From: a virus
IMG/VR virus record: IMGVR_UViG_3300007513_000005
DNA length: 64,000 nucleotides
Reading direction: 5' to 3' (one strand)
The notes beneath the pieces were generated by a model. It was not told the origin of the DNA, made no database searches, and saw nothing but the letters and a program-made list of their open reading frames with translations. Numbering within the stretch: the first letter of the stretch is position 1; each line of letters opens with the position of its first letter. This document shows positions 5,183 to 23,773 of this stretch, in pieces. The position numbers were made by a program, and so were the translations under genes.

Positions 5183-6766
<1,584 letters not shown>

Positions 6767-10172: not shown

Positions 10173-10534
10173 TCGGCGTCATCTTCTCCTCTTTCAATCA
10201 AATCAAAGACAAAGTCAATATCCTGATCGGTGATTCCCAGATCTCGCAGGGTTTGATTGCCTTGTTCAATGTCTTTGTTTTGTCTCTCAATTTTCTTTTT
10301 TCCAATTTTGTTCTTCTCCTGTTTTACTTTTGTAATGTACATCAAAATGTTTGGATCATTGTTGATGTACCCTGTAACCATAGACTTAAAGAAGTCGACC
10401 TGACTTATGCCATCCCTCCTTAACTTAAGTCTCAACTCCGCATGCCTCTTGTCTGTGTCTGCGAAAGTTATCTTTTTTTCTTCCTGTCCGTACCTATAAT
10501 AACCCACGATATAACCCACACGCTCTCCTGACAT
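10169..10534 (-). CDS. Hypothetical protein, possible ribbon-helix-helix regulator
   Basis: KKITF strand followed by two helices; start uncertain. Confidence 0.5.
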   Translation of the reverse strand: MSGERVGYIVGYYRYGQEEKKITFADTDKRHAELRLKLRRDGISQVDFFKSMVTGYINNDPNILMYITKVKQEKNKIGKKKIERQNKDIEQGNQTLRDLGITDQDIDFVFDLIERGEDDAE

Positions 10535-10751
10535 GCTCCTGGTCAGGGTTTTGACAGATTGTTTCGCTTATCGCAAAGCACATAGCCGTTCCCGTATAGT
10601 CCCTCAAAGTACAATTCGCGTTGCACTCCGATAGATGCCATACGGAAGACGGGTTGTAACAAACCTGTATACCGAGAGATCTAGTAACTGGTTCCTCTAC
10701 TGTGGAATTGTCACCACAACCAAGTACCACTATCAACAACAAATATCTCAA
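10494..10751 (-). CDS. Small Cys-rich lipoprotein
   Basis: MRYLLLIVVLGC lipobox; six further Cys. Confidence 0.65.
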   Translation of the reverse strand: MRYLLLIVVLGCGDNSTVEEPVTRSLGIQVCYNPSSVWHLSECNANCTLRDYTGTAMCFAISETICQNPDQEHVRRACGLYRGLL

Positions 10752-16600: not shown

Positions 16601-17051
16601 AAATCATCTTATAAATATTCTGAAGTCCTGTCTGATTTTGTGCCAACAAGATCATATGACTCCTCCTATTAAGGATGGACTTCATCTTCTTCTTGGATGC
16701 TTCATTCTCGACAGTGGCGCCTGACTGCGTGGACTCAAGAGACTTTTTATTCTTTGCCTCTTGTCTTGCTTTTTCGTAATCCTCTTTCCAATTTGCAACA
16801 CTTGGCACGAAATATGCTTCACAACCGAATATTGGTTTGAACTCCTTTCCTTCGGACATCATCTTCTTCGCGTGAATGACCTGGTAAGCAAGACCGTTTG
16901 CATTACCGTGATCCGTAAGAGCAAGGGCATCCATGCCGTTATCGTAGGCATAATCCATGTGCTGCTGGGGGTATCCGAGTGCGTCGAATATTGACCCAGC
17001 TACTGAGTGGGCATGTAGTCCCACAAATGGTATCTCTGGTTGCTTTCTCAT
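13629..17051 (-). CDS. dnaE: DNA polymerase III alpha subunit (family C) with intact PHP domain
   Basis: LHAHS, TDHG, TADSHY PHP ligands; GRGSAAGSLV; PDIDYD catalytic motif; KFDILGL; YGFNKSHA. Confidence 0.98.
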   Translation of the reverse strand: MRKQPEIPFVGLHAHSVAGSIFDALGYPQQHMDYAYDNGMDALALTDHGNANGLAYQVIHAKKMMSEGKEFKPIFGCEAYFVPSVANWKEDYEKARQEAKNKKSLESTQSGATVENEASKKKMKSILNRRSHMILLAQNQTGLQNIYKMISKSYSGDYFYRFPRIDYAMLKKHSEGVIAASACLGGIYAGDFWQNRDEGEDAVLDAMRKTTQKMQSIFGDRWYGELQWNNIPEQHKLNQFIIQMHYEFGIDLISTADSHYYSPEAWKDRELYKRLGFLGRKVEWLSEELPIDVEEIGYELYPKNGDQMWESYKKYSEECGVEYNDNLVLNSITKTHDIAYNMIESFLPDNTVRLPDFVVPDGKSAGQALAVLCIAGAKEKGFADKTEYIERLKYEVNVIEDRGFSKYFLTMKKIAEEATRMQLTGAGRGSAAGSLVAYALGITQIDPIRYGLQFERFLTKGGSGYPDIDYDVSDPMVLKEHLIDEWGDDVVVPITNWNTLQLRSLVKDISKFYKIPFAEVNAVTNKMVYEATPLAKKAHGITAGVYSPTFEELMQYSESLQKFLNKYPEVETHVNALYGQTRSASRHAGGVVIGENLNEWMPLINSGGVRQTPWSEGQNVRHLETMGFIKFDILGLASLRMIEDAIRHILVRYEGVSDPTFEDIKTFYETKLHPEKINLDDEEVWKNVFHEGKWAGIFQFTENGAQDFCKNGRPNNITDLAAITSIYRPGPLSAGVDKMYIGAKENPEEVEYLNQYVRDVTEETYGFLIFQEQIAMLAHKLGKNLSLDEGNKLRKLLTKKGTGAPQVEMDKIYDKFRRGCLEKGMKQHEAKELWDKFKYFSGYGFNKSHAVSYCVLSFQCAYLLNYYPECWLAAFLDKEPDKRKERAINVAKSYGYKIEPLNVNTSGVRWEISEDGKTLIQPLSSIKGLGMTAIQQIIDNRPFNKIEEFLFNDNIIYSKLNKKAVSALCLSQALNCLMDERFSGMKHFWSAVAVERPRKEKNLEDNIEKFEPEGDFTDEEKLQYLVDLVGIFPMSTVMNEQLQSKIDELMIPPISEFDAELQVCWFIPREVLQKKTKNGKLFYVVKVIDSNSEENTIKCWGVDPNKDKVYVNRPYMARLHWDAQWGFSTRSVRKTFRMLA

Positions 17052-17863
17052 CTGTTTCCTTTCATTTTAATTGCCGCGCTGAAACAGTATCTCCAATCTG
17101 TTCCAATTTTGAGGGGATCTCTCATCATATCCTGATAGCCCTCCCACGACGAAATATCTTTATATGTATCTAGTTCAATTGAGCAACTGTTGTCACTCAT
17201 TATATCATCACCAAAAACTAAGTCAAGTGTATAATCACTTTTTACATCGATTCTTTTAAATAAGTAAGAGCAGTGCTTAAATTGTCTTACACTAAAACTA
17301 AACCCCATATGATGTCCAGTTAAGGCGCTTTCCCCATTGTGTGTATAAAAGAAAGATTCATTTTGCTTGATCAACCCCCTAGCCTCTATGTTCCTTGGGT
17401 CATACACTCCGTAGGGCATGGACACGTAGTATCTATATGGCACTATCCATTTAGATATCTTGTCACTGATCGTGAAACTTGCATTAACACCTTCCATAAC
17501 TGAAACACCAATCCCATCTTTGTTCATGTTCTTGTATGATATCGGTACATAAAATATTGGTACCGATGTCCTGTTCTCCTGGGGGAAGTTAGCAAACTTT
17601 GCTCTCTCATGTTGAGCAAGATTGAGAACAAAATCCCCGCAAACACTTTTAAGGAGTGGTGCAATAGACTCATCACAAACTACCCATATGGTCTTGCACC
17701 CAACATACGAACACTCTACAATACTTCTCTGTATAGCATAAAAGTTATTTGCAATCGGCAACATGCCTGGGTGGAGTACTAAATCTATATCAGAATCAAC
17801 CTTCGATACTGGAATGATGCCTGCTATATGCTTCGATAATGTTGCTTCGTTTCTTTCTGTCAT
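17048..17863 (-). CDS. Degenerate sugar-nucleotidyltransferase (GT-A)-like protein
   Basis: AGIIPV...HPGMLPIAN...IQRSIVECSYVGCKTIWVV mirrors the NTP_transferase N-terminus but lacks GxGTR. Confidence 0.55.
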   Translation of the reverse strand: MTERNEATLSKHIAGIIPVSKVDSDIDLVLHPGMLPIANNFYAIQRSIVECSYVGCKTIWVVCDESIAPLLKSVCGDFVLNLAQHERAKFANFPQENRTSVPIFYVPISYKNMNKDGIGVSVMEGVNASFTISDKISKWIVPYRYYVSMPYGVYDPRNIEARGLIKQNESFFYTHNGESALTGHHMGFSFSVRQFKHCSYLFKRIDVKSDYTLDLVFGDDIMSDNSCSIELDTYKDISSWEGYQDMMRDPLKIGTDWRYCFSAAIKMKGNR

Positions 17864-18569
17864 AAAACTTTATCTTCTTGGTACTCTTATACACTGTCTC
17901 CTCCATTGAGACAACCATTCTTTCCATTACTTCCAATTTGGGCTTCCTTCTTACTGTGCCACCCTTGTGGATTAAAGGTCTGTGTACTCCTCCCTGTTCC
18001 ATTAACAACTTCTGAGTAATGAACCTAACCATTGTATCAGAATAATCAAAGTCTGTCAACTGTTCTTTCGTTAAGAAAGATACAGAGAAAATCTCTTTCT
18101 TTCCCGTGGACTCGATCCTCGAAATAAAACTGCCATTTGGAAAAACGGGAACTAAATTAGATGCATCACAAAATTTCAACCTCATAAAATCGATAATTTT
18201 ATAAGAATCTCGACCCTCTGTTGCCAATACTTCCAGATCTACTTTGATTGCACTGTCTGGAAAGATGTGACACTTTTGAAACTGAATGTCAGTTCCTCTA
18301 ATTTTAAGTATGTTTTCCTCTATTCTCACATATTCCAAATCAAATGGATTAACAATCAATCCCTTCATCCCACACAAGAATTTAAGCATAGACCATGCCT
18401 CTGAATGTCTTGTAGTGGTCAGCTGCCCCACCTTTATCTGTTTGGCAAATTTGAGATCGACGGTGGGTAGTTGATGTCGGGGCAGGATTATCGGCACCTC
18501 TTCAGTATAAGACTTCATGAGAGCGCAGACATCCTGTCCGACTATAACCTCATCGAGTATCAATAGCAC
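17796..18569 (-). CDS. Hypothetical protein, possibly a degenerate Rossmann/FAD-binding fold
   Basis: N-terminal DEVIVGQDVCALMKSY resembles a beta-alpha dinucleotide start without GxGxxG. Confidence 0.5.
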   Translation of the reverse strand: MLLILDEVIVGQDVCALMKSYTEEVPIILPRHQLPTVDLKFAKQIKVGQLTTTRHSEAWSMLKFLCGMKGLIVNPFDLEYVRIEENILKIRGTDIQFQKCHIFPDSAIKVDLEVLATEGRDSYKIIDFMRLKFCDASNLVPVFPNGSFISRIESTGKKEIFSVSFLTKEQLTDFDYSDTMVRFITQKLLMEQGGVHRPLIHKGGTVRRKPKLEVMERMVVSMEETVYKSTKKIKFYDRKKRSNIIEAYSRHHSSIEG

Positions 18570-20626
18570 ATACCCATGGCAAAATCATACCTGGAACCAT
18601 ATGATTCATCTATTACAATCCCAGAGACGTTCATGAACCCTGAAGGTGTTACATACGTTGCCTCCTGCTCAGATGATCCCAAACAAATGTCATCCAAGAT
18701 AGACATTAAGTCATCATACATTTGCTGTTGGTTGCGAGATAGTTCAAAAATAGTTCCATTGCCACTTGTCACATAGTCGTTCCAAACACGAGAGCGCCTT
18801 TCTGCGAAAGCATAAAACTTTAAGTTCGGAGTAGATTCAAGTGCTTCCAAGACTTGAGTTGCAGTGACAGTTGGAACCAAGTAGGACTGTGCATATTCAT
18901 CACTAAATAAGACAATAATCCTATCTGCGTTTGGTCTCCAGTTCACCTTGAAGAATTTTAATTCTGGGATTGAACCCATTCTATTGGCCCAAGTTGCTTG
19001 AGCAAAGTTATAGTTAACATTGCCAGAGATGTTTTGCAGAGCGAGTAAAATGGCATCCTTAAATTGCTCGTTGCCTGTCGAGTTGTCGAACTGCCCTACA
19101 TTGGAAAATGCTGTTAGGAACTGATCGAACTCAGTGATATTCGACTCCATAATAAGCATCTCTTGCGTGCCAGTAGGAGTAGGGGCTCCTTTAGGTCCAA
19201 CGATTAGTCCCCACTTCAATTTATCCTCTGCTGCAAAATTCTGAGCAAATCTATTCATTGCCATCCTCACTGCATTGATATAGTTCTCCATGGAACCAGA
19301 CCAGTCTACTAAAAATAAAATATCTGTCTCTGGAATTTCCTCTCCGTAGTCTACGATACCGTCACAGTCATCGTCAGCACCATTGCAGATTTCCTCCTGT
19401 GGTAAAGTTTCACCTCCACAAAAGTCAACGACTTGACCTTGTGTTGGGTGGTCTCCATACCACTGCCCTCTGTTACAAGACTGCTCTCCCATTTCGCAGA
19501 TTCCCACATTCAAGGTACCTTCAGGCCCAGTGTAGCAATCTCTAACAAGCTGTTCATCTATCAAACTATCACAGTCTTCATCGAAGTCGTTGCACATCTC
19601 AGGGTTTATGGCAACTCCTGCAAACTGATCGCACTCCTCACCAGGTTCTAACTCAGGAACCCAATGGCAAAGAGCAAAGCACTCGGTCATCTGAGTGATT
19701 TGGCACTCCTCATTAATACACTCGCAAGTCTTAAACCCCATACCACAAGTTAAGGGAGGTTCCATGCAGGGCACGAGCGCGCCCACTGACTCTGGTGGGC
19801 ATTGGCAGTTCAAACCTTCGTCAACTAGATTATCACAGTCATTATCCTCGCCATCGCAGGCTTCAGGTGCAGGTCTTTGAGCAGTGCAACCTATCCAGTT
19901 GCCGTTTGCACATATCTCTAAACCTGAGTTACAAGTAGTTGAACACTCTCTAATAAGTTGTTCGTCAGCTGAACCGTCGCAATCATTATCAAGTCCGTCG
20001 CAAATGTCTTCTGGAACCTGTCCACAACCACCGCAGGCATTTAACTGGTTTTCATCAACATTGCCATCGCAGTCGTTATCCTGGTTGTCACAAACCTCTT
20101 CCTCTTCAAAACAAGTAATACACTCTCCGTAGTAAAGTCTGCCCTTGTCACATTTAACTTCCTGTCTACCTGTGGTGCCATCTATTTCACAATCATAATA
20201 CATCGTGAAGTCTTCGTTTATCCCAGGAGGACAGTCGAATGCGTGTACACATTCAGATTCCTCTAAAATCTCTGCTGGTGGACAGTTTGGATCTCTGTTT
20301 CTATCACAGGGAATCAAATCTTCTCCACAAATGTCTAGGATTGCATATTTTGCCCGAATCTCTGTTCCCGTAGGTGGACAGTACCAAGTTTGGCGTTGGC
20401 AACAAGTCGGATTGCAGGTGCAATATAAATCATCAGTGTTCGCAAGATTAGCACAGGGGTCCACCCAAGCATCTACAGTGATATCTGGGATTTCAACAAT
20501 CTGAGTGTCAACAGAGGAATCAACAATCACCATTCTTTGTACATCTGGTGCTGGTGCAGTGCCGATGGGCGTCGAGTCTGTACAAGCAACAACAAATAGC
20601 ATACAGAACAAAATTCTACTTTTCAT
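18560..20626 (-). CDS. Cys-rich lipoprotein with five CDxxDxDCD metal-binding repeats and a C-terminal VWA domain
   Basis: LFVVAC lipobox; repeats EVCDNQDNDCDGNVDE, DICDGLDNDCDGSADE, EACDGEDNDCDNLVDE, EMCNDFDEDCDSLIDE, EICNGADDDCDGIVD; DILFLVDWSGSM MIDAS and IIVLFSDE. Confidence 0.88.
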   Translation of the reverse strand: MKSRILFCMLFVVACTDSTPIGTAPAPDVQRMVIVDSSVDTQIVEIPDITVDAWVDPCANLANTDDLYCTCNPTCCQRQTWYCPPTGTEIRAKYAILDICGEDLIPCDRNRDPNCPPAEILEESECVHAFDCPPGINEDFTMYYDCEIDGTTGRQEVKCDKGRLYYGECITCFEEEEVCDNQDNDCDGNVDENQLNACGGCGQVPEDICDGLDNDCDGSADEQLIRECSTTCNSGLEICANGNWIGCTAQRPAPEACDGEDNDCDNLVDEGLNCQCPPESVGALVPCMEPPLTCGMGFKTCECINEECQITQMTECFALCHWVPELEPGEECDQFAGVAINPEMCNDFDEDCDSLIDEQLVRDCYTGPEGTLNVGICEMGEQSCNRGQWYGDHPTQGQVVDFCGGETLPQEEICNGADDDCDGIVDYGEEIPETDILFLVDWSGSMENYINAVRMAMNRFAQNFAAEDKLKWGLIVGPKGAPTPTGTQEMLIMESNITEFDQFLTAFSNVGQFDNSTGNEQFKDAILLALQNISGNVNYNFAQATWANRMGSIPELKFFKVNWRPNADRIIVLFSDEYAQSYLVPTVTATQVLEALESTPNLKFYAFAERRSRVWNDYVTSGNGTIFELSRNQQQMYDDLMSILDDICLGSSEQEATYVTPSGFMNVSGIVIDESYGSRYDFAMGMCY

Positions 20627-20885
20627 TTTTGTTTCTCAACTTAAGGATTCCCTTTACTTCATTTAGGTCTTTTGAAGTTTCTTCGAGATCTGCTTGCGTC
20701 GATTCCAGAATCCTCAGTACAGTATCTGATTTTTCAATTATACGATCTATACTTTCATTGAGTGCTTGAGATTGAATCTTTGCTTCTCTCGCGCTCTCTT
20801 GACGCTCTGCCCCTTTATACTGATAAACCCCAAACAAACCCAAGGCAAAAACGCCATAGAATATAAAAATACTTCTTGTCTTCAT
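20616..20885 (-). CDS. N-anchored membrane coiled-coil protein
   Basis: TM segment IFIFYGVFALGLFGVY then heptads; GAGGAGG RBS favours the start at 20885. Confidence 0.65.
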   Translation of the reverse strand: MKTRSIFIFYGVFALGLFGVYQYKGAERQESAREAKIQSQALNESIDRIIEKSDTVLRILESTQADLEETSKDLNEVKGILKLRNKNEK

Positions 20886-20910
20886 GGTACCTCCTCGTAC
20901 GCTCCCTATC

Positions 20911-21393
20911 TCAACATCCATCTTCATCTAAGATAGATTTATATTTCTTCACAATCTTAATATAATGCATTCTATCATAAGAATTCTTCCAGCGCAAGCA
21001 GATCGTGCCAGTACTATAAAAGCACAACCCCTTGTTTACATTACCCTTGGCATAAACCCTTATATTGTAAGATAAGATTTGGGCGCCTACTTTTATTGAC
21101 ACTTTCGGGTTCTTCAACTGTTCGCAAGTGTATTTCCTATTTTTGGTTTCTGGTCCACCTGTCCATCTAGGTATTACCTGAGTGAGTCCGCATGCTCCCG
21201 CTGGCGAAGTGACCCACGGTACAAACGAACTCTCGGCCATAATTACGGCCGCCAAGAGAGATGGTTCAATGTCATTCTTTTCTGCTTCTGCAATTATTGT
21301 TGGAACATAAGAGCACGCTCTGCGTGATGAAGAATCTGTAAGTCCAAAACTGCTGCCGATAATTGCACAGAGTGCTAGCATTGAGACTGGCAT
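20911..21393 (-). CDS. Lytic transglycosylase (SLT) with N-terminal hydrophobic signal
   Basis: AVIMAESSF catalytic Glu, GACGLTQVIP, LKNPKVSIKVGAQIL. Confidence 0.9.
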   Translation of the reverse strand: MPVSMLALCAIIGSSFGLTDSSSRRACSYVPTIIAEAEKNDIEPSLLAAVIMAESSFVPWVTSPAGACGLTQVIPRWTGGPETKNRKYTCEQLKNPKVSIKVGAQILSYNIRVYAKGNVNKGLCFYSTGTICLRWKNSYDRMHYIKIVKKYKSILDEDGC

Positions 21394-22837: not shown

Positions 22838-23773
22838 TCACGACACCTCCTGAACCAGTAACACAATAATGATCGAAACGGACAGTCCCAACATCATCTT
22901 CATGAAGTCCTTGGCGACAAGAGGAAAGACCTTTTTCACCTTTCTATCCATTCTCGTTGCAATGGCGAGTTCACGACCACAAAGCAACCCTACAAACACC
23001 CACGTTGTGCTCATGGGAATGTTGTTCATCTGCTTTAGGTACAGTAAGATAAAAGCATAAACCGCATCGATGATTGTGGCCGAGCGCACATAAGACGTAG
23101 AGGATTTCTCAATTACTATCTGCTGTATCTTGCCACCCTTGGTATAAAAGACATACCCCAACACAGACACCAATAACACAAGCACGCCTGACAAGAACTC
23201 TACGCTCATCTGTCTTGGTGCGAACACTGCTATGTTCGCGAGGTCATGACTTAGCCAAGTGAACCATAAGAATCCCGTTGTACCCCACTGGGCGATGCGC
23301 CAGGCACGTTCATGGTCTGGTTTAACCTTCTTCTTTTCGTCTAAGTATTTGGACAGAATCATCCAAAACCCGTAAGCTACAGTTGCTGCTATGGCATATC
23401 CAAGGACACTCTTAACCAACATCTTCTCAAAAACAACAGTACTAGCAAAGGCGGATAACACCAAGAATGTCGTAGAGACTGGAATGCCATATCTTGTCAG
23501 CAACAGTAAAACACCTGGTGCTAATGCATGGTACCACTCAACTGTTACGAAAGGTATCTTCTCTAGGCGTCCGAAGGATATGTCTCCTCCATATGCAAAC
23601 CAACTGTACAAAACAGTCGCAACAAGCACTGATGAGGCAGCTGCCCACAGTTTCCACCATGGCGTCTTCTTATTCGACACCATAAACGTTCCCAAGGTTT
23701 GAACGGCATCGTTACTCATAACCGCTGTGCCAGCAAGGGTGATCCCAACAAGGGGCAAAATCATCTCTAACAT
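22838..23773 (-). CDS. PiT/PHO4-like phosphate (or sulfate) permease
   Basis: Multi-TM; two inverted-repeat signatures SNDAVQTLG and SHDLANIA resemble GxNDxAN. Confidence 0.65.
   Translation of the reverse strand: MLEMILPLVGITLAGTAVMSNDAVQTLGTFMVSNKKTPWWKLWAAASSVLVATVLYSWFAYGGDISFGRLEKIPFVTVEWYHALAPGVLLLLTRYGIPVSTTFLVLSAFASTVVFEKMLVKSVLGYAIAATVAYGFWMILSKYLDEKKKVKPDHERAWRIAQWGTTGFLWFTWLSHDLANIAVFAPRQMSVEFLSGVLVLLVSVLGYVFYTKGGKIQQIVIEKSSTSYVRSATIIDAVYAFILLYLKQMNNIPMSTTWVFVGLLCGRELAIATRMDRKVKKVFPLVAKDFMKMMLGLSVSIIIVLLVQEVS

What the first reader, a model, noticed from the sequence alone, without database searches (positions are those of the whole stretch)
18560..20626. Phage-encoded myxobacterial-style integrin-like surface lipoprotein (Cys/Asp repeats + MIDAS VWA)
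Seen: a lipobox, a Cys-dense stalk with five C-D/N-x-x-D-x-D-C-D repeats, and a C-terminal VWA domain with an intact DxSxS MIDAS. A second Cys-rich lipoprotein lies at 10494. Known: these repeats are abundant in Myxococcota surface proteins, and the Myxococcus gliding adhesins CglB and CglD are VWA lipoproteins; Cgl lipoproteins can be passed between cells by outer-membrane exchange. Inference: the host is probably a myxobacterium or a related predatory deltaproteobacterium. The phage may display an adhesin on infected cells to alter gliding, aggregation or kin contact, to mask its receptor, or to reach neighbouring cells. This is the best candidate here for an undescribed host-manipulation system.
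Basis: partly seen in the sequence, partly recalled or inferred. Interest (0 to 1): 0.8.

Follow-up and report, generated by a model that had tools for sequence, protein, structure and literature searches.

The report
Integrin-like lipoprotein of marine phages
A large uncultured marine T4-like phage carries, inside its DNA-replication operon, a gene for a lipid-anchored, cysteine-rich protein ending in an integrin-type binding domain; the gene is real and conserved in hundreds of related phages, but its job and the phage's host are still unknown.

Summary
ORF 18560..20626 (-) encodes a 688-aa protein with these parts:
- a lipoprotein signal (VVAC, Cys15) and a disordered tether;
- a Cys-rich N-domain with no fold match in the PDB;
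- five C-[DN]-x-x-D-x-D-C-D (PF11617/MopE) repeats;
- a C-terminal VWA domain with an invariant DxSxS...E...D metal site.

The second small Cys-rich lipoprotein (10494..10751) is also real.

New here: the protein belongs to a family that looks phage-restricted. At least 450 IMG/VR contigs carry it. Its slot is usually fixed: thyX-[variable]-LIPO-p257-p271-dnaE. No full-length cellular homologue was found. The neighbouring SLT gene occurs in about a third of relatives. The Rz-like gene occurs in 2 of 84 relatives. So this is not a lysis gene.

The "myxobacterial style" reading is supported by the repeats and by one Myxococcaceae protein of the same layout.

The host is unresolved:
- phage GC is 42%;
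- the cultured relatives infect Flavobacterium and Microcystis, and no copy was found in any deposited phage genome;
- about 5% of sampled Bacteroidota also carry the repeats.

Function is inferred only: an envelope-anchored, metal-dependent binder made early or mid-infection.

Other windows of this scan noted the same family on other phage DNA.

The parts
20582..20626 (-). Lipoprotein signal peptide, residues 1-15, lipobox V-V-A-C with Cys15
   Evidence: Sequence. Cys15 is invariant, and all 46 aligned homologues have [LVI][ASTVG][GAS]C signals followed by a near-invariant Asp at +3.
20468..20581 (-). Disordered tether, residues 16-53, rich in Pro/Ser/Thr/Asp
   Evidence: pLDDT below 50 over residues 16-53. 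Mean pairwise identity is lowest here, 31%.
20117..20467 (-). Cys-rich beta-strand N-domain, residues 54-170, no known fold found
   Evidence: Predicted strands with pLDDT 70-87. Foldseek gives no match at E<=0.001, and the best VIA-wide Z is 3.0. Mean pairwise identity is 61%, with invariant Cys.
19337..20116 (-). Stalk of five MopE-type Cys/Asp repeats (three contain DxDxDG) with small beta-hairpin modules, residues 171-430
   Evidence: PF11617 E 1.1e-14. Repeat positions. This is the only part that matches cellular genomes.
18677..19336 (-). VWA domain, residues 431-650, with metal site D441/S443/S445 (19292..19306), E520 (19067..19069) and D576 (18899..18901)
   Evidence: pLDDT above 90. 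Foldseek E 1.5e-6 to integrin beta I-like domains. VIA Z 15-18 to many VWA domains. The profile finds only integrin beta-8 in the PDB, at a marginal E 0.01. The metal-site residues are invariant.
18563..18676 (-). Variable C-terminal tail, residues 651-688, ending in the invariant Cys687
   Evidence: Low pLDDT. Mean pairwise identity 26%. C648 and C687 are invariant.
17796..18569 (-). p257, unknown function; its start overlaps the end of the lipoprotein gene; always downstream of it
   Evidence: Synteny in about 70 loci. The overlap is conserved. No match in Pfam, PHROGs, NCBIfam or the PDB.
17048..17863 (-). p271, possibly nucleotidyltransferase-like; always follows p257 and precedes dnaE
   Evidence: Synteny. 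No PDB sequence match. The ESM Atlas gives only a weak lead to NTP_transferase clusters, score about 0.9.
20616..20927 (-). Rz-like membrane protein with a coiled coil (probable start at 20885, MKTRS...); its stop overlaps the ATG of the lipoprotein gene; a variable insert
   Evidence: phrog_9841 E 2.3e-4. Sequence. Present only in the window and in L007 among 84 loci. No embedded lipobox ORF.
20911..21393 (-). SLT lytic transglycosylase with a hydrophobic N-terminus; a variable insert present in about a third of relatives
   Evidence: PF01464 E 2.1e-17. Endolysin-type PHROGs. Synteny.
10494..10751 (-). Second, small Cys-rich lipoprotein (85 aa, VLGC|GD...)
   Evidence: By eye, similar small lipoproteins lie directly upstream of the big lipoprotein gene in L027 and L081.

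Best explanation
The gene encodes a member of a family of exported lipoproteins that looks restricted to phages.

Molecular picture (partly shown, partly inferred): after signal peptidase II cleavage and lipidation at Cys15, a roughly 38-residue flexible tether holds the protein on a membrane of the host envelope, most likely the outer membrane. The body is rigid and disulfide-bonded. It consists of a novel N-domain and five MopE/DxDxDG repeats that probably bind Ca2+. It ends in a VWA head whose metal site (DxSxS...E...D, integrin beta-I-like) would bind an acidic residue of a protein ligand.

Timing (inferred): the gene sits between thyX and dnaE and is translationally coupled to its neighbours, so it is probably made early or mid-infection together with the replication genes.

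Role (not tested): I think it remodels the surface of the infected cell by binding a host envelope or matrix component. The most likely effect is masking the phage's receptor, which would exclude superinfecting phage or stop progeny sticking to debris. The alternative is a change in the cell's adhesion or motility.
For: - The signal, lipobox Cys and 40-odd Cys are invariant over 46 homologues of 46-85% identity, which indicates export to an oxidising compartment.
- The VWA fold is predicted with high confidence and the metal-site residues are invariant.
- The family is large and looks phage-only:
  - more than 2000 protein hits, the best 120 full-length;
  - 450 IMG/VR contigs;
  - the VWA domain alone finds only 222 clusters among 1.84 billion representatives, and the top hits have the same layout or are fragments;
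  - the short 387-393-aa forms also sit on phage-like contigs;
  - no full-length match in 185,579 species genomes.
- The gene order thyX-[variable]-LIPO-p257-p271-dnaE holds in about 70 of 84 loci, with overlapping stops and starts.
- It is not in the virion block. The ACTAKTTA motif seen upstream of structural genes is absent between 17 and 26 kb of the window.
- The lipoprotein diverges faster (41-85% identity) than DnaE (75-92%) or RNR (85-94%). That fits a surface-interaction protein.
Against: - No experiment or expression data exist. Lipidation, final location (periplasmic face or cell surface) and the ligand are all unknown.
- Known exclusion lipoproteins such as T5 Llp are small and lie near receptor-binding genes (from my own knowledge). 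This protein is 688 aa and lies in the replication module.
- No hypervariable ligand-facing region stands out. The metal-site strands are the most conserved part. That argues for a conserved target rather than an arms race.
- Early timing is inferred from gene order only.
Confidence: 0.55

Rival explanations
1. Host-behaviour manipulation. The protein mimics gliding or adhesion lipoproteins of a myxobacteria-like host (CglD/CglB type). On infected cells it changes gliding, aggregation or kin contact, and it might pass to neighbours by outer-membrane exchange.
For: - It has the same layout as CglD as published: lipoprotein, DxDxDG repeats, Cys-rich stalk, beta-I-like VWA.
- It has the same layout as the Myxococcaceae protein P0122.
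- The nearest cellular repeats are in Myxococcota.
- A 10.8-Mb marine MAG with 46% GC carries 322 repeat matches and a GltF match over the family cut-off.
- A related phage that carries the lipoprotein (G012) has a weak GltF-like gene, E 1.6e-9 and below the cut-off.
Against: - No GltF-like gene in this record.
- The VWA domain has no close cellular relative.
- The host is unknown, and phage GC of 42% is far below that of classical myxobacteria.
- The cultured relatives infect other phyla.
- PF11617 is not exclusive to Myxococcota.
- No CglD sequence was available for a direct comparison.
Confidence: 0.2
2. Lysis accessory. The lipoprotein is the outer-membrane partner (an o-spanin-like component) of the upstream Rz-like protein, and works with the SLT enzyme in envelope disruption.
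For: In this window the order is SLT, Rz-like, lipoprotein. The stop of the Rz-like gene overlaps the ATG of the lipoprotein gene, and no embedded lipobox ORF exists.
Against: - The Rz-like gene is present in only 2 of 84 loci, and SLT in about a third. The lipoprotein is kept regardless.
- The slot upstream of the lipoprotein gene holds unrelated inserts in other relatives: a small lipoprotein, or a cytidylyltransferase-like gene.
- At 688 aa with a VWA head, it is unlike any o-spanin I know of.
- The Rz-like match itself is weak, E 2.3e-4.
Confidence: 0.05
3. Metal handling. The Cys/Asp repeats bind Cu or Ca, and the protein acts as a periplasmic or surface metal scavenger or buffer during infection.
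For: The Pfam family is named Cu-binding_MopE, 'putative metal-binding motif'. There are three DxDxDG motifs. Another first-reader note (e1-5874431), unchecked here, reports a metallothionein-like mini-gene elsewhere in this genome.
Against: The Pfam name is only putative. DxDxDG in such modules is usually structural Ca2+ binding, as in the COMP-type repeats cited for CglD. This idea does not explain the conserved MIDAS VWA head.
Confidence: 0.05

Closest known systems
CglD of Myxococcus xanthus, a beta-integrin-like gliding lipoprotein (bioRxiv 10.1101/2023.10.19.562135)
   Same: Lipoprotein with DxDxDG Ca2+-type repeats, a Cys-rich disulfide-bonded stalk, and a VWA domain whose best structural matches include integrin beta I-like domains and which carries a DxSxS metal site.
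   Different: - It is 688 aa against 1130 aa.
- The repeats are Cys-containing MopE units rather than the COMP-like N-terminal domain described for CglD.
- The N-domain has no known fold.
- It is encoded by a phage in a replication operon.
- No sequence-level link to CglD was shown, and no Glt genes are present in this record.
Myxococcaceae MAG protein P0122 (L139:4455-8063)
   Same: Lipobox (LLAGC), MopE repeats, then a C-terminal VWA with DNSGS...TDE motifs. It is alignable to residues 169-581 at 27-33% identity.
   Different: It is 1203 aa with about 20 near-identical repeats. It lacks the phage N-domain. It is cellular, with 73% GC, and its function is unknown.
T5 Llp-type phage lipoproteins that mask the receptor (from my own knowledge, not tested here)
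   Same: A lipoprotein encoded by a lytic phage that acts at the host outer membrane early in infection. This is the role I favour.
   Different: Llp is about 60 aa, lies next to the receptor-binding gene and has no VWA or repeats. There is no sequence similarity: PHROGs gave no hit.
Short-form phage MopE-VWA lipoproteins (P0206, P0239; 387-393 aa)
   Same: Lipobox, 3-4 MopE repeats and the same VWA subtype, on phage-like contigs among nucleotide-metabolism and RNA-repair genes.
   Different: They lack the N-domain and part of the stalk, and they belong to other phage lineages.

Membership tests
Bacterial lipoprotein (signal peptidase II substrate) | Basic n-region, hydrophobic h-region and a lipobox [LVI][ASTVI][GAS]C | tested here: met
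   MKSR...FVVA|C. All 46 homologues keep the signal and the Cys.
Bacterial lipoprotein (signal peptidase II substrate) | Actual lipidation and membrane anchoring | not testable with these tools
   Needs globomycin treatment or lipid labelling.
PF11617 Cu-binding_MopE repeat proteins | Pfam score above the gathering cut-off, with several repeat units | tested here: met
   54.8 bits against 27. Five units.
VWA domain (PF00092) with MIDAS | Pfam score above the gathering cut-off | tested here: not met
   20.9 bits against 23.8. The sequence is divergent.
VWA domain (PF00092) with MIDAS | VWA alpha/beta fold | tested here: met
   pLDDT above 90. Foldseek E 1.5e-6, probability 1.0. VIA Z 15-18, rmsd 2.2-3.7 over 165-195 residues.
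VWA domain (PF00092) with MIDAS | DxSxS plus a Thr or Glu plus an Asp as metal ligands | tested here: met
   D441, S443, S445, E520 and D576 are invariant. The geometry was not inspected and metal binding was not tested.
CglD-type beta-integrin-like gliding lipoproteins | Layout: lipoprotein, DxDxDG repeats, Cys-rich stalk, beta-I-like VWA | tested here: met
   compared with the published description.
CglD-type beta-integrin-like gliding lipoproteins | Sequence homology to CglD itself | not tested
   No CglD sequence could be fetched. Indirect evidence: no NCBIfam hit, and the VWA-only search gives phage-type proteins on top.
CglD-type beta-integrin-like gliding lipoproteins | Works with the Agl-Glt gliding machinery | tested here: inconclusive
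   No GltF (NF033764) in this 81%-complete record. There is a weak GltF-like gene in one relative. The host is unknown.
o-spanin (Rz1-like) | Small outer-membrane lipoprotein whose gene is consistently paired with an i-spanin gene | tested here: not met
   It is 688 aa. The Rz-like neighbour is present in 2 of 84 loci.
Virion structural protein | Lies in the structural module, or matches virion protein families | tested here: not met
   It lies between thyX and dnaE. No PHROG hit. The structural genes lie at 35-64 kb of the window.

The most novel reading that the evidence does not exclude
A widespread clade of marine T4-like phages has kept for a long time its own integrin-like adhesin. The adhesin is displayed on infected gliding bacteria (marine myxobacteria-like lineages). 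It controls how the infected cell sticks, moves or contacts kin, or it spreads to neighbours by outer-membrane exchange. That would be phage control of host social behaviour through a eukaryote-like adhesion module.
Probability: 0.15. Interest if true: 0.85.

Novelty: new variant of a known kind. Interest (0 to 1): 0.55.

Why it matters
VWA/MIDAS lipoproteins are known as bacterial adhesins (CglB, CglD). My searches found no described phage-borne family of them: PHROGs gave no hit, no deposited phage genome gave a match, and four literature searches found no such report.

This family is conserved in hundreds of large marine phage contigs and sits in a fixed slot of the replication operon. It is therefore probably important for infection in the sea.

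Finding its ligand could reveal the receptor or surface biology of an abundant uncultured host. It could also show a new way in which lytic phages rework the host envelope.

The protein also offers a compact bacterial-world model of an integrin-like head on a Ca2+/disulfide stalk.

Tried and rejected
- Lysis-cassette reading: rejected. The Rz-like gene is in 2 of 84 loci and SLT in about a third. The slot upstream of the lipoprotein gene is a variable insertion site.
- Recent capture from a host: rejected. No full-length cellular homologue was found, and the VWA subtype is seen almost only in phage-type proteins.
- Fold of residues 54-430 modelled alone: no Foldseek match at E<=0.001, and best VIA-wide Z of 3.0. 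Neither an EGF-like nor a COMP-like assignment can be claimed.
- Host inference, none decisive:
  - The phage GroEL is 40-44% identical to GroEL of every candidate genome, which gives no signal.
  - The G012 relative, classed 'provirus', shows even GC, phage-like gene order and no obvious host flank.
  - No tmRNA was found, only 2 tRNAs.
  - The VWA domain was not found in the six genomes of the phylum of marine MAG NP119.
  - The GltF-like protein of G012 is no closer to the low-GC MAGs than to others.
- p257 and p271: no match in Pfam, PHROGs, NCBIfam or the PDB. The ESM Atlas gave only a weak nucleotidyltransferase lead for p271 and nothing for p257.
- Atypical contexts of the gene in 11 loci gave no functional hint: an HD domain, DUF2201 and DUF4268.
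- Literature searches for phage MopE/VWA lipoproteins and for Mel-JY01 found nothing relevant.
- The complex-prediction job was not used, because I do not claim any specific partner.
- My Myxococcota PF11617 scan used a stricter E-value than the Bacteroidota scan. Only the comparison at E<=1e-12 is valid: 32 of 101 genomes against 10 of 201.
Full report
**1. What is there**

The minus-strand ORF 18560..20626 encodes a 688-aa protein.

- **Signal.** It starts with a textbook lipoprotein signal, MKSRILFCMLFVVA|C.
- **Repeats.** The regex C[DN]..D.DCD matches five times, at residues 179, 209, 257, 345 and 414. Only 5 of 20000 residue shuffles give even one match. Pfam PF11617 (Cu-binding_MopE) scores 54.8 bits against a cut-off of 27. 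Three of the units contain DxDxDG.
- **VWA by sequence.** Pfam VWA is just under its cut-off, 20.9 against 23.8 bits.
- **VWA by structure.** An AlphaFold2 model built on 46 homologues gives pLDDT above 90 for residues 430-650. That part matches integrin beta I-like domains first in Foldseek (E 1.5e-6, probability 1.0). It matches VWA domains of all kinds at Z 15-18 in a search that does not rely on Foldseek. A profile of the family finds only integrin beta-8 in the PDB, at a marginal E of 0.01, over the motif WR..A.R(I/L)(I/L)..(S/T)D.
- **Invariant residues.** In the alignment, Cys15, some 45 further Cys, D441/S443/S445, E520 and D576 are invariant. The Glu sits in a G-x-E-x-x-x-D-A-I motif. 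From memory, that resembles the beta-integrin PEGGFDAI motif, in which a Glu rather than a Thr completes the metal site.
- **Other regions.** Residues 16-53 are predicted disordered. Residues 54-430 were folded alone (pLDDT 77.9). They gave no match at E<=0.001 in Foldseek and a best Z of 3.0 in the wide search.

**2. The setting**

The window is part of a 146.6-kb IMG/VR virus record estimated 81% complete. All genes in the window lie on one strand.

The phage is T4-like:
- Gp23-type capsid protein (4e-70), tail sheath and a gp15-like protein;
- gp32, RecA/UvsX-like protein, DnaB-like helicase, 5'-3' exonuclease, GroEL and ClpP;
- class II RNR and ThyX;
- a DnaE-type polymerase.

By capsid protein, the nearest isolates are Flavobacterium phage vB_FspM_immuto (46%), Microcystis phage Mel-JY01 (42%) and Rhodothermus phage RM378 (32%). 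A published analysis describes an immuto-like group of 155-190-kb phages whose regular polymerase is of family A, B or C (PMC11348598). This phage plausibly belongs to that group.

A tblastn search with the lipoprotein found nothing in 50,697 deposited phage genomes, which include those isolates.

**3. The family**

- The word-indexed search gave more than 2000 hits. The best 120 are full-length at 46-85% identity and come from marine metagenomes, Tara included.
- IMG/VR holds 450 contigs that encode a relative.
- In 84 loci examined, the order is nearly always RNR-p90-GroES-ThyX-[variable]-LIPO-p257-p271-DnaE, with overlapping stops and starts.
- The variable slot holds one of these inserts:
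  - an SLT transglycosylase, in about a third of loci;
  - the Rz-like gene, only in this phage and in its 96%-identical relative L007;
  - a small Cys-rich lipoprotein that by eye resembles the one at 10494 (L027, L081);
  - a cytidylyltransferase-like gene (L020, L071, L076).
- Eleven loci carry the gene in other contexts. One (L044) has two tandem copies.
- The lipoprotein diverges more (41-85%) than DnaE (75-92%) or RNR (85-94%), and less than p257 (about 19-62%).
- Within the protein, the tether and the tail are variable, and the metal-site strands are the most conserved part.

**4. Relation to cellular proteins**

A scan of one genome per species (185,579 species) found no full-length homologue. 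Only the repeat region (about residues 170-430) matched. Nearly all matches were in Myxococcota MAGs, at 27-45% identity over the longer stretches.

One Myxococcaceae MAG protein (P0122, 1203 aa) has the same order of parts: lipobox LLAGC, about 20 MopE repeats, and a C-terminal VWA with DNSGS.

The VWA domain alone was scored against 1.84 billion representative proteins. It found only 222 clusters at E<=0.001. The best are proteins of 600-790 aa with the same layout, or fragments. A short form of 387-393 aa also lies on phage-like contigs, next to CYTH, RtcB, endonuclease VII, thymidylate synthase and RNA ligase genes.

The head domain is therefore a phage lineage of its own, not a fresh host copy. 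CglD as published (1130 aa lipoprotein; COMP-like DxDxDG region; EGF-like Cys stalk; beta-I VWA) has the same overall design. I could not fetch its sequence, so homology to CglD is untested.

**5. Host**

For a myxobacteria-like host:
- The repeats are enriched in Myxococcota. At E<=1e-12, 32 of 101 sampled genomes match, against 10 of 201 Bacteroidota.
- Low-GC marine genomes rich in these repeats exist. MAG NP119 (10.8 Mb, loci at 46-47% GC) has 322 matches at up to 59% identity, and a GltF match over the NCBIfam cut-off.
- One relative that carries the lipoprotein (G012) encodes a 79-aa exported GltF-like protein, E 1.6e-9 and below the cut-off. I followed this lead from earlier notes of this scan.

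Against it:
- The phage has 42% GC.
- This record has no GltF-like gene.
- The cultured relatives infect Bacteroidota, Cyanobacteria and Rhodothermus.
- PF11617 occurs in about 5-6% of sampled Bacteroidota, sometimes in dozens of copies.

One further clue: all three lipoproteins predicted in this phage have Asp at +3 (C-T-D, C-G-D, C-G-D). The family consensus is C-S-D. This partly resembles the Bacteroidota surface-export signals SDDDD and SDDFE (PMC5080379).

GroEL gave no signal. I rate a Myxococcota-like or allied gliding host at roughly even odds.

**6. Mechanism**

- **Shown by sequence or model:** an export signal with lipobox, an invariant Cys framework, Ca2+-type motifs, and a VWA head with a complete, invariant metal site.
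- **Inferred:** lipid anchoring by a flexible tether to the outer membrane; a rigid disulfide/Ca2+ stalk; metal-dependent binding of an acidic residue on a protein ligand; expression with the replication genes. The expression timing rests on gene order, coupling and the lack of the ACTAKTTA motif found upstream of structural genes. That motif is a lead from another first-reader note and is itself unproven.
- **Role (speculative):** masking of the receptor or of another envelope protein (exclusion of superinfecting phage, protection of progeny from debris) seems the most ordinary use of an early lipoprotein in a lytic phage. Manipulation of adhesion or gliding is the more novel alternative. A lysis role and a metal-scavenging role are unlikely, for the reasons given under the rival explanations.

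**7. Novelty and verdict**

Within what I searched, the family is undescribed: no PHROG, no match in deposited phage genomes, and no paper found. Several other windows of this scan noted the same family on other phage genomes, and two follow-up reports linked it to GltF in giant marine phages.

I file it as a new variant of a known kind, the VWA/MIDAS lipoprotein adhesins. Interest is moderate, and would rise if a gliding host and a behavioural effect were shown.

Noticed in passing
window 20616..21393, and loci L020, L027, L071, L076, L081 just upstream of the lipoprotein gene: The gap between thyX and the lipoprotein gene is a hot spot for gene insertion. Different relatives hold an SLT gene, an Rz-like gene, a small Cys-rich lipoprotein, a cytidylyltransferase-like gene, or nothing.
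   Followed up: partly
window 20616..20927 (-): The Rz-like membrane/coiled-coil gene has no embedded or overlapping small lipoprotein ORF. Its stop overlaps the ATG of the 688-aa lipoprotein gene (ATGAAAAGTAG). The phage's real outer-membrane spanin partner, if there is one, was not found.
   Followed up: partly
window 18560..20626, window 10494..10751, and genome C1:1643-1933 (outside the window): All three predicted lipoproteins of this phage have Asp at position +3 after the lipid-modified Cys (C-T-D, C-G-D, C-G-D). The big family's consensus is C-S-D. This may be a host-specific sorting signal. It partly resembles the Bacteroidota surface-export signal.
   Followed up: partly
window 17048..18569 (-): Two genes of unknown function (p257, p271) always follow the lipoprotein gene with overlapping starts and always precede dnaE. 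p271 has a weak nucleotidyltransferase-like signal. Neither has an export signal.
   Followed up: partly
L044:3983-8609: One related phage contig (145 kb) carries two tandem copies of the lipoprotein gene, of 767 and 768 aa, both with MopE repeats.
   Followed up: no
L179:1435-1674 (G012, a 188-kb related phage): A 79-aa exported protein matches the GltF/CglF gliding family weakly (E 1.6e-9, 35 bits against a cut-off of 90). It lies after an IMPDH-like dehydrogenase gene and a multi-pass membrane protein gene, about 17 kb from that phage's copy of the lipoprotein gene.
   Followed up: partly
G001 (MAG 'Deltaproteobacteria bacterium NP119'; loci L119, L120, L167, L170, L174, L191): This marine 10.8-Mb genome (loci at about 46-51% GC) has 322 matches to the phage repeats and a GltF match over the family cut-off. 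Its GTDB phylum holds only six genomes. It is a candidate host type that was not tested further.
   Followed up: partly
window 5183..6760 (-): The phage GroEL is only 40-44% identical to the GroEL of every bacterial genome tested. It is an old phage lineage, not a recent host copy.
   Followed up: partly
window 22838..23773 (-): A 311-aa protein present only in the closest relatives has a weak, below-cut-off match to the PHO4 phosphate-transporter family.
   Followed up: no
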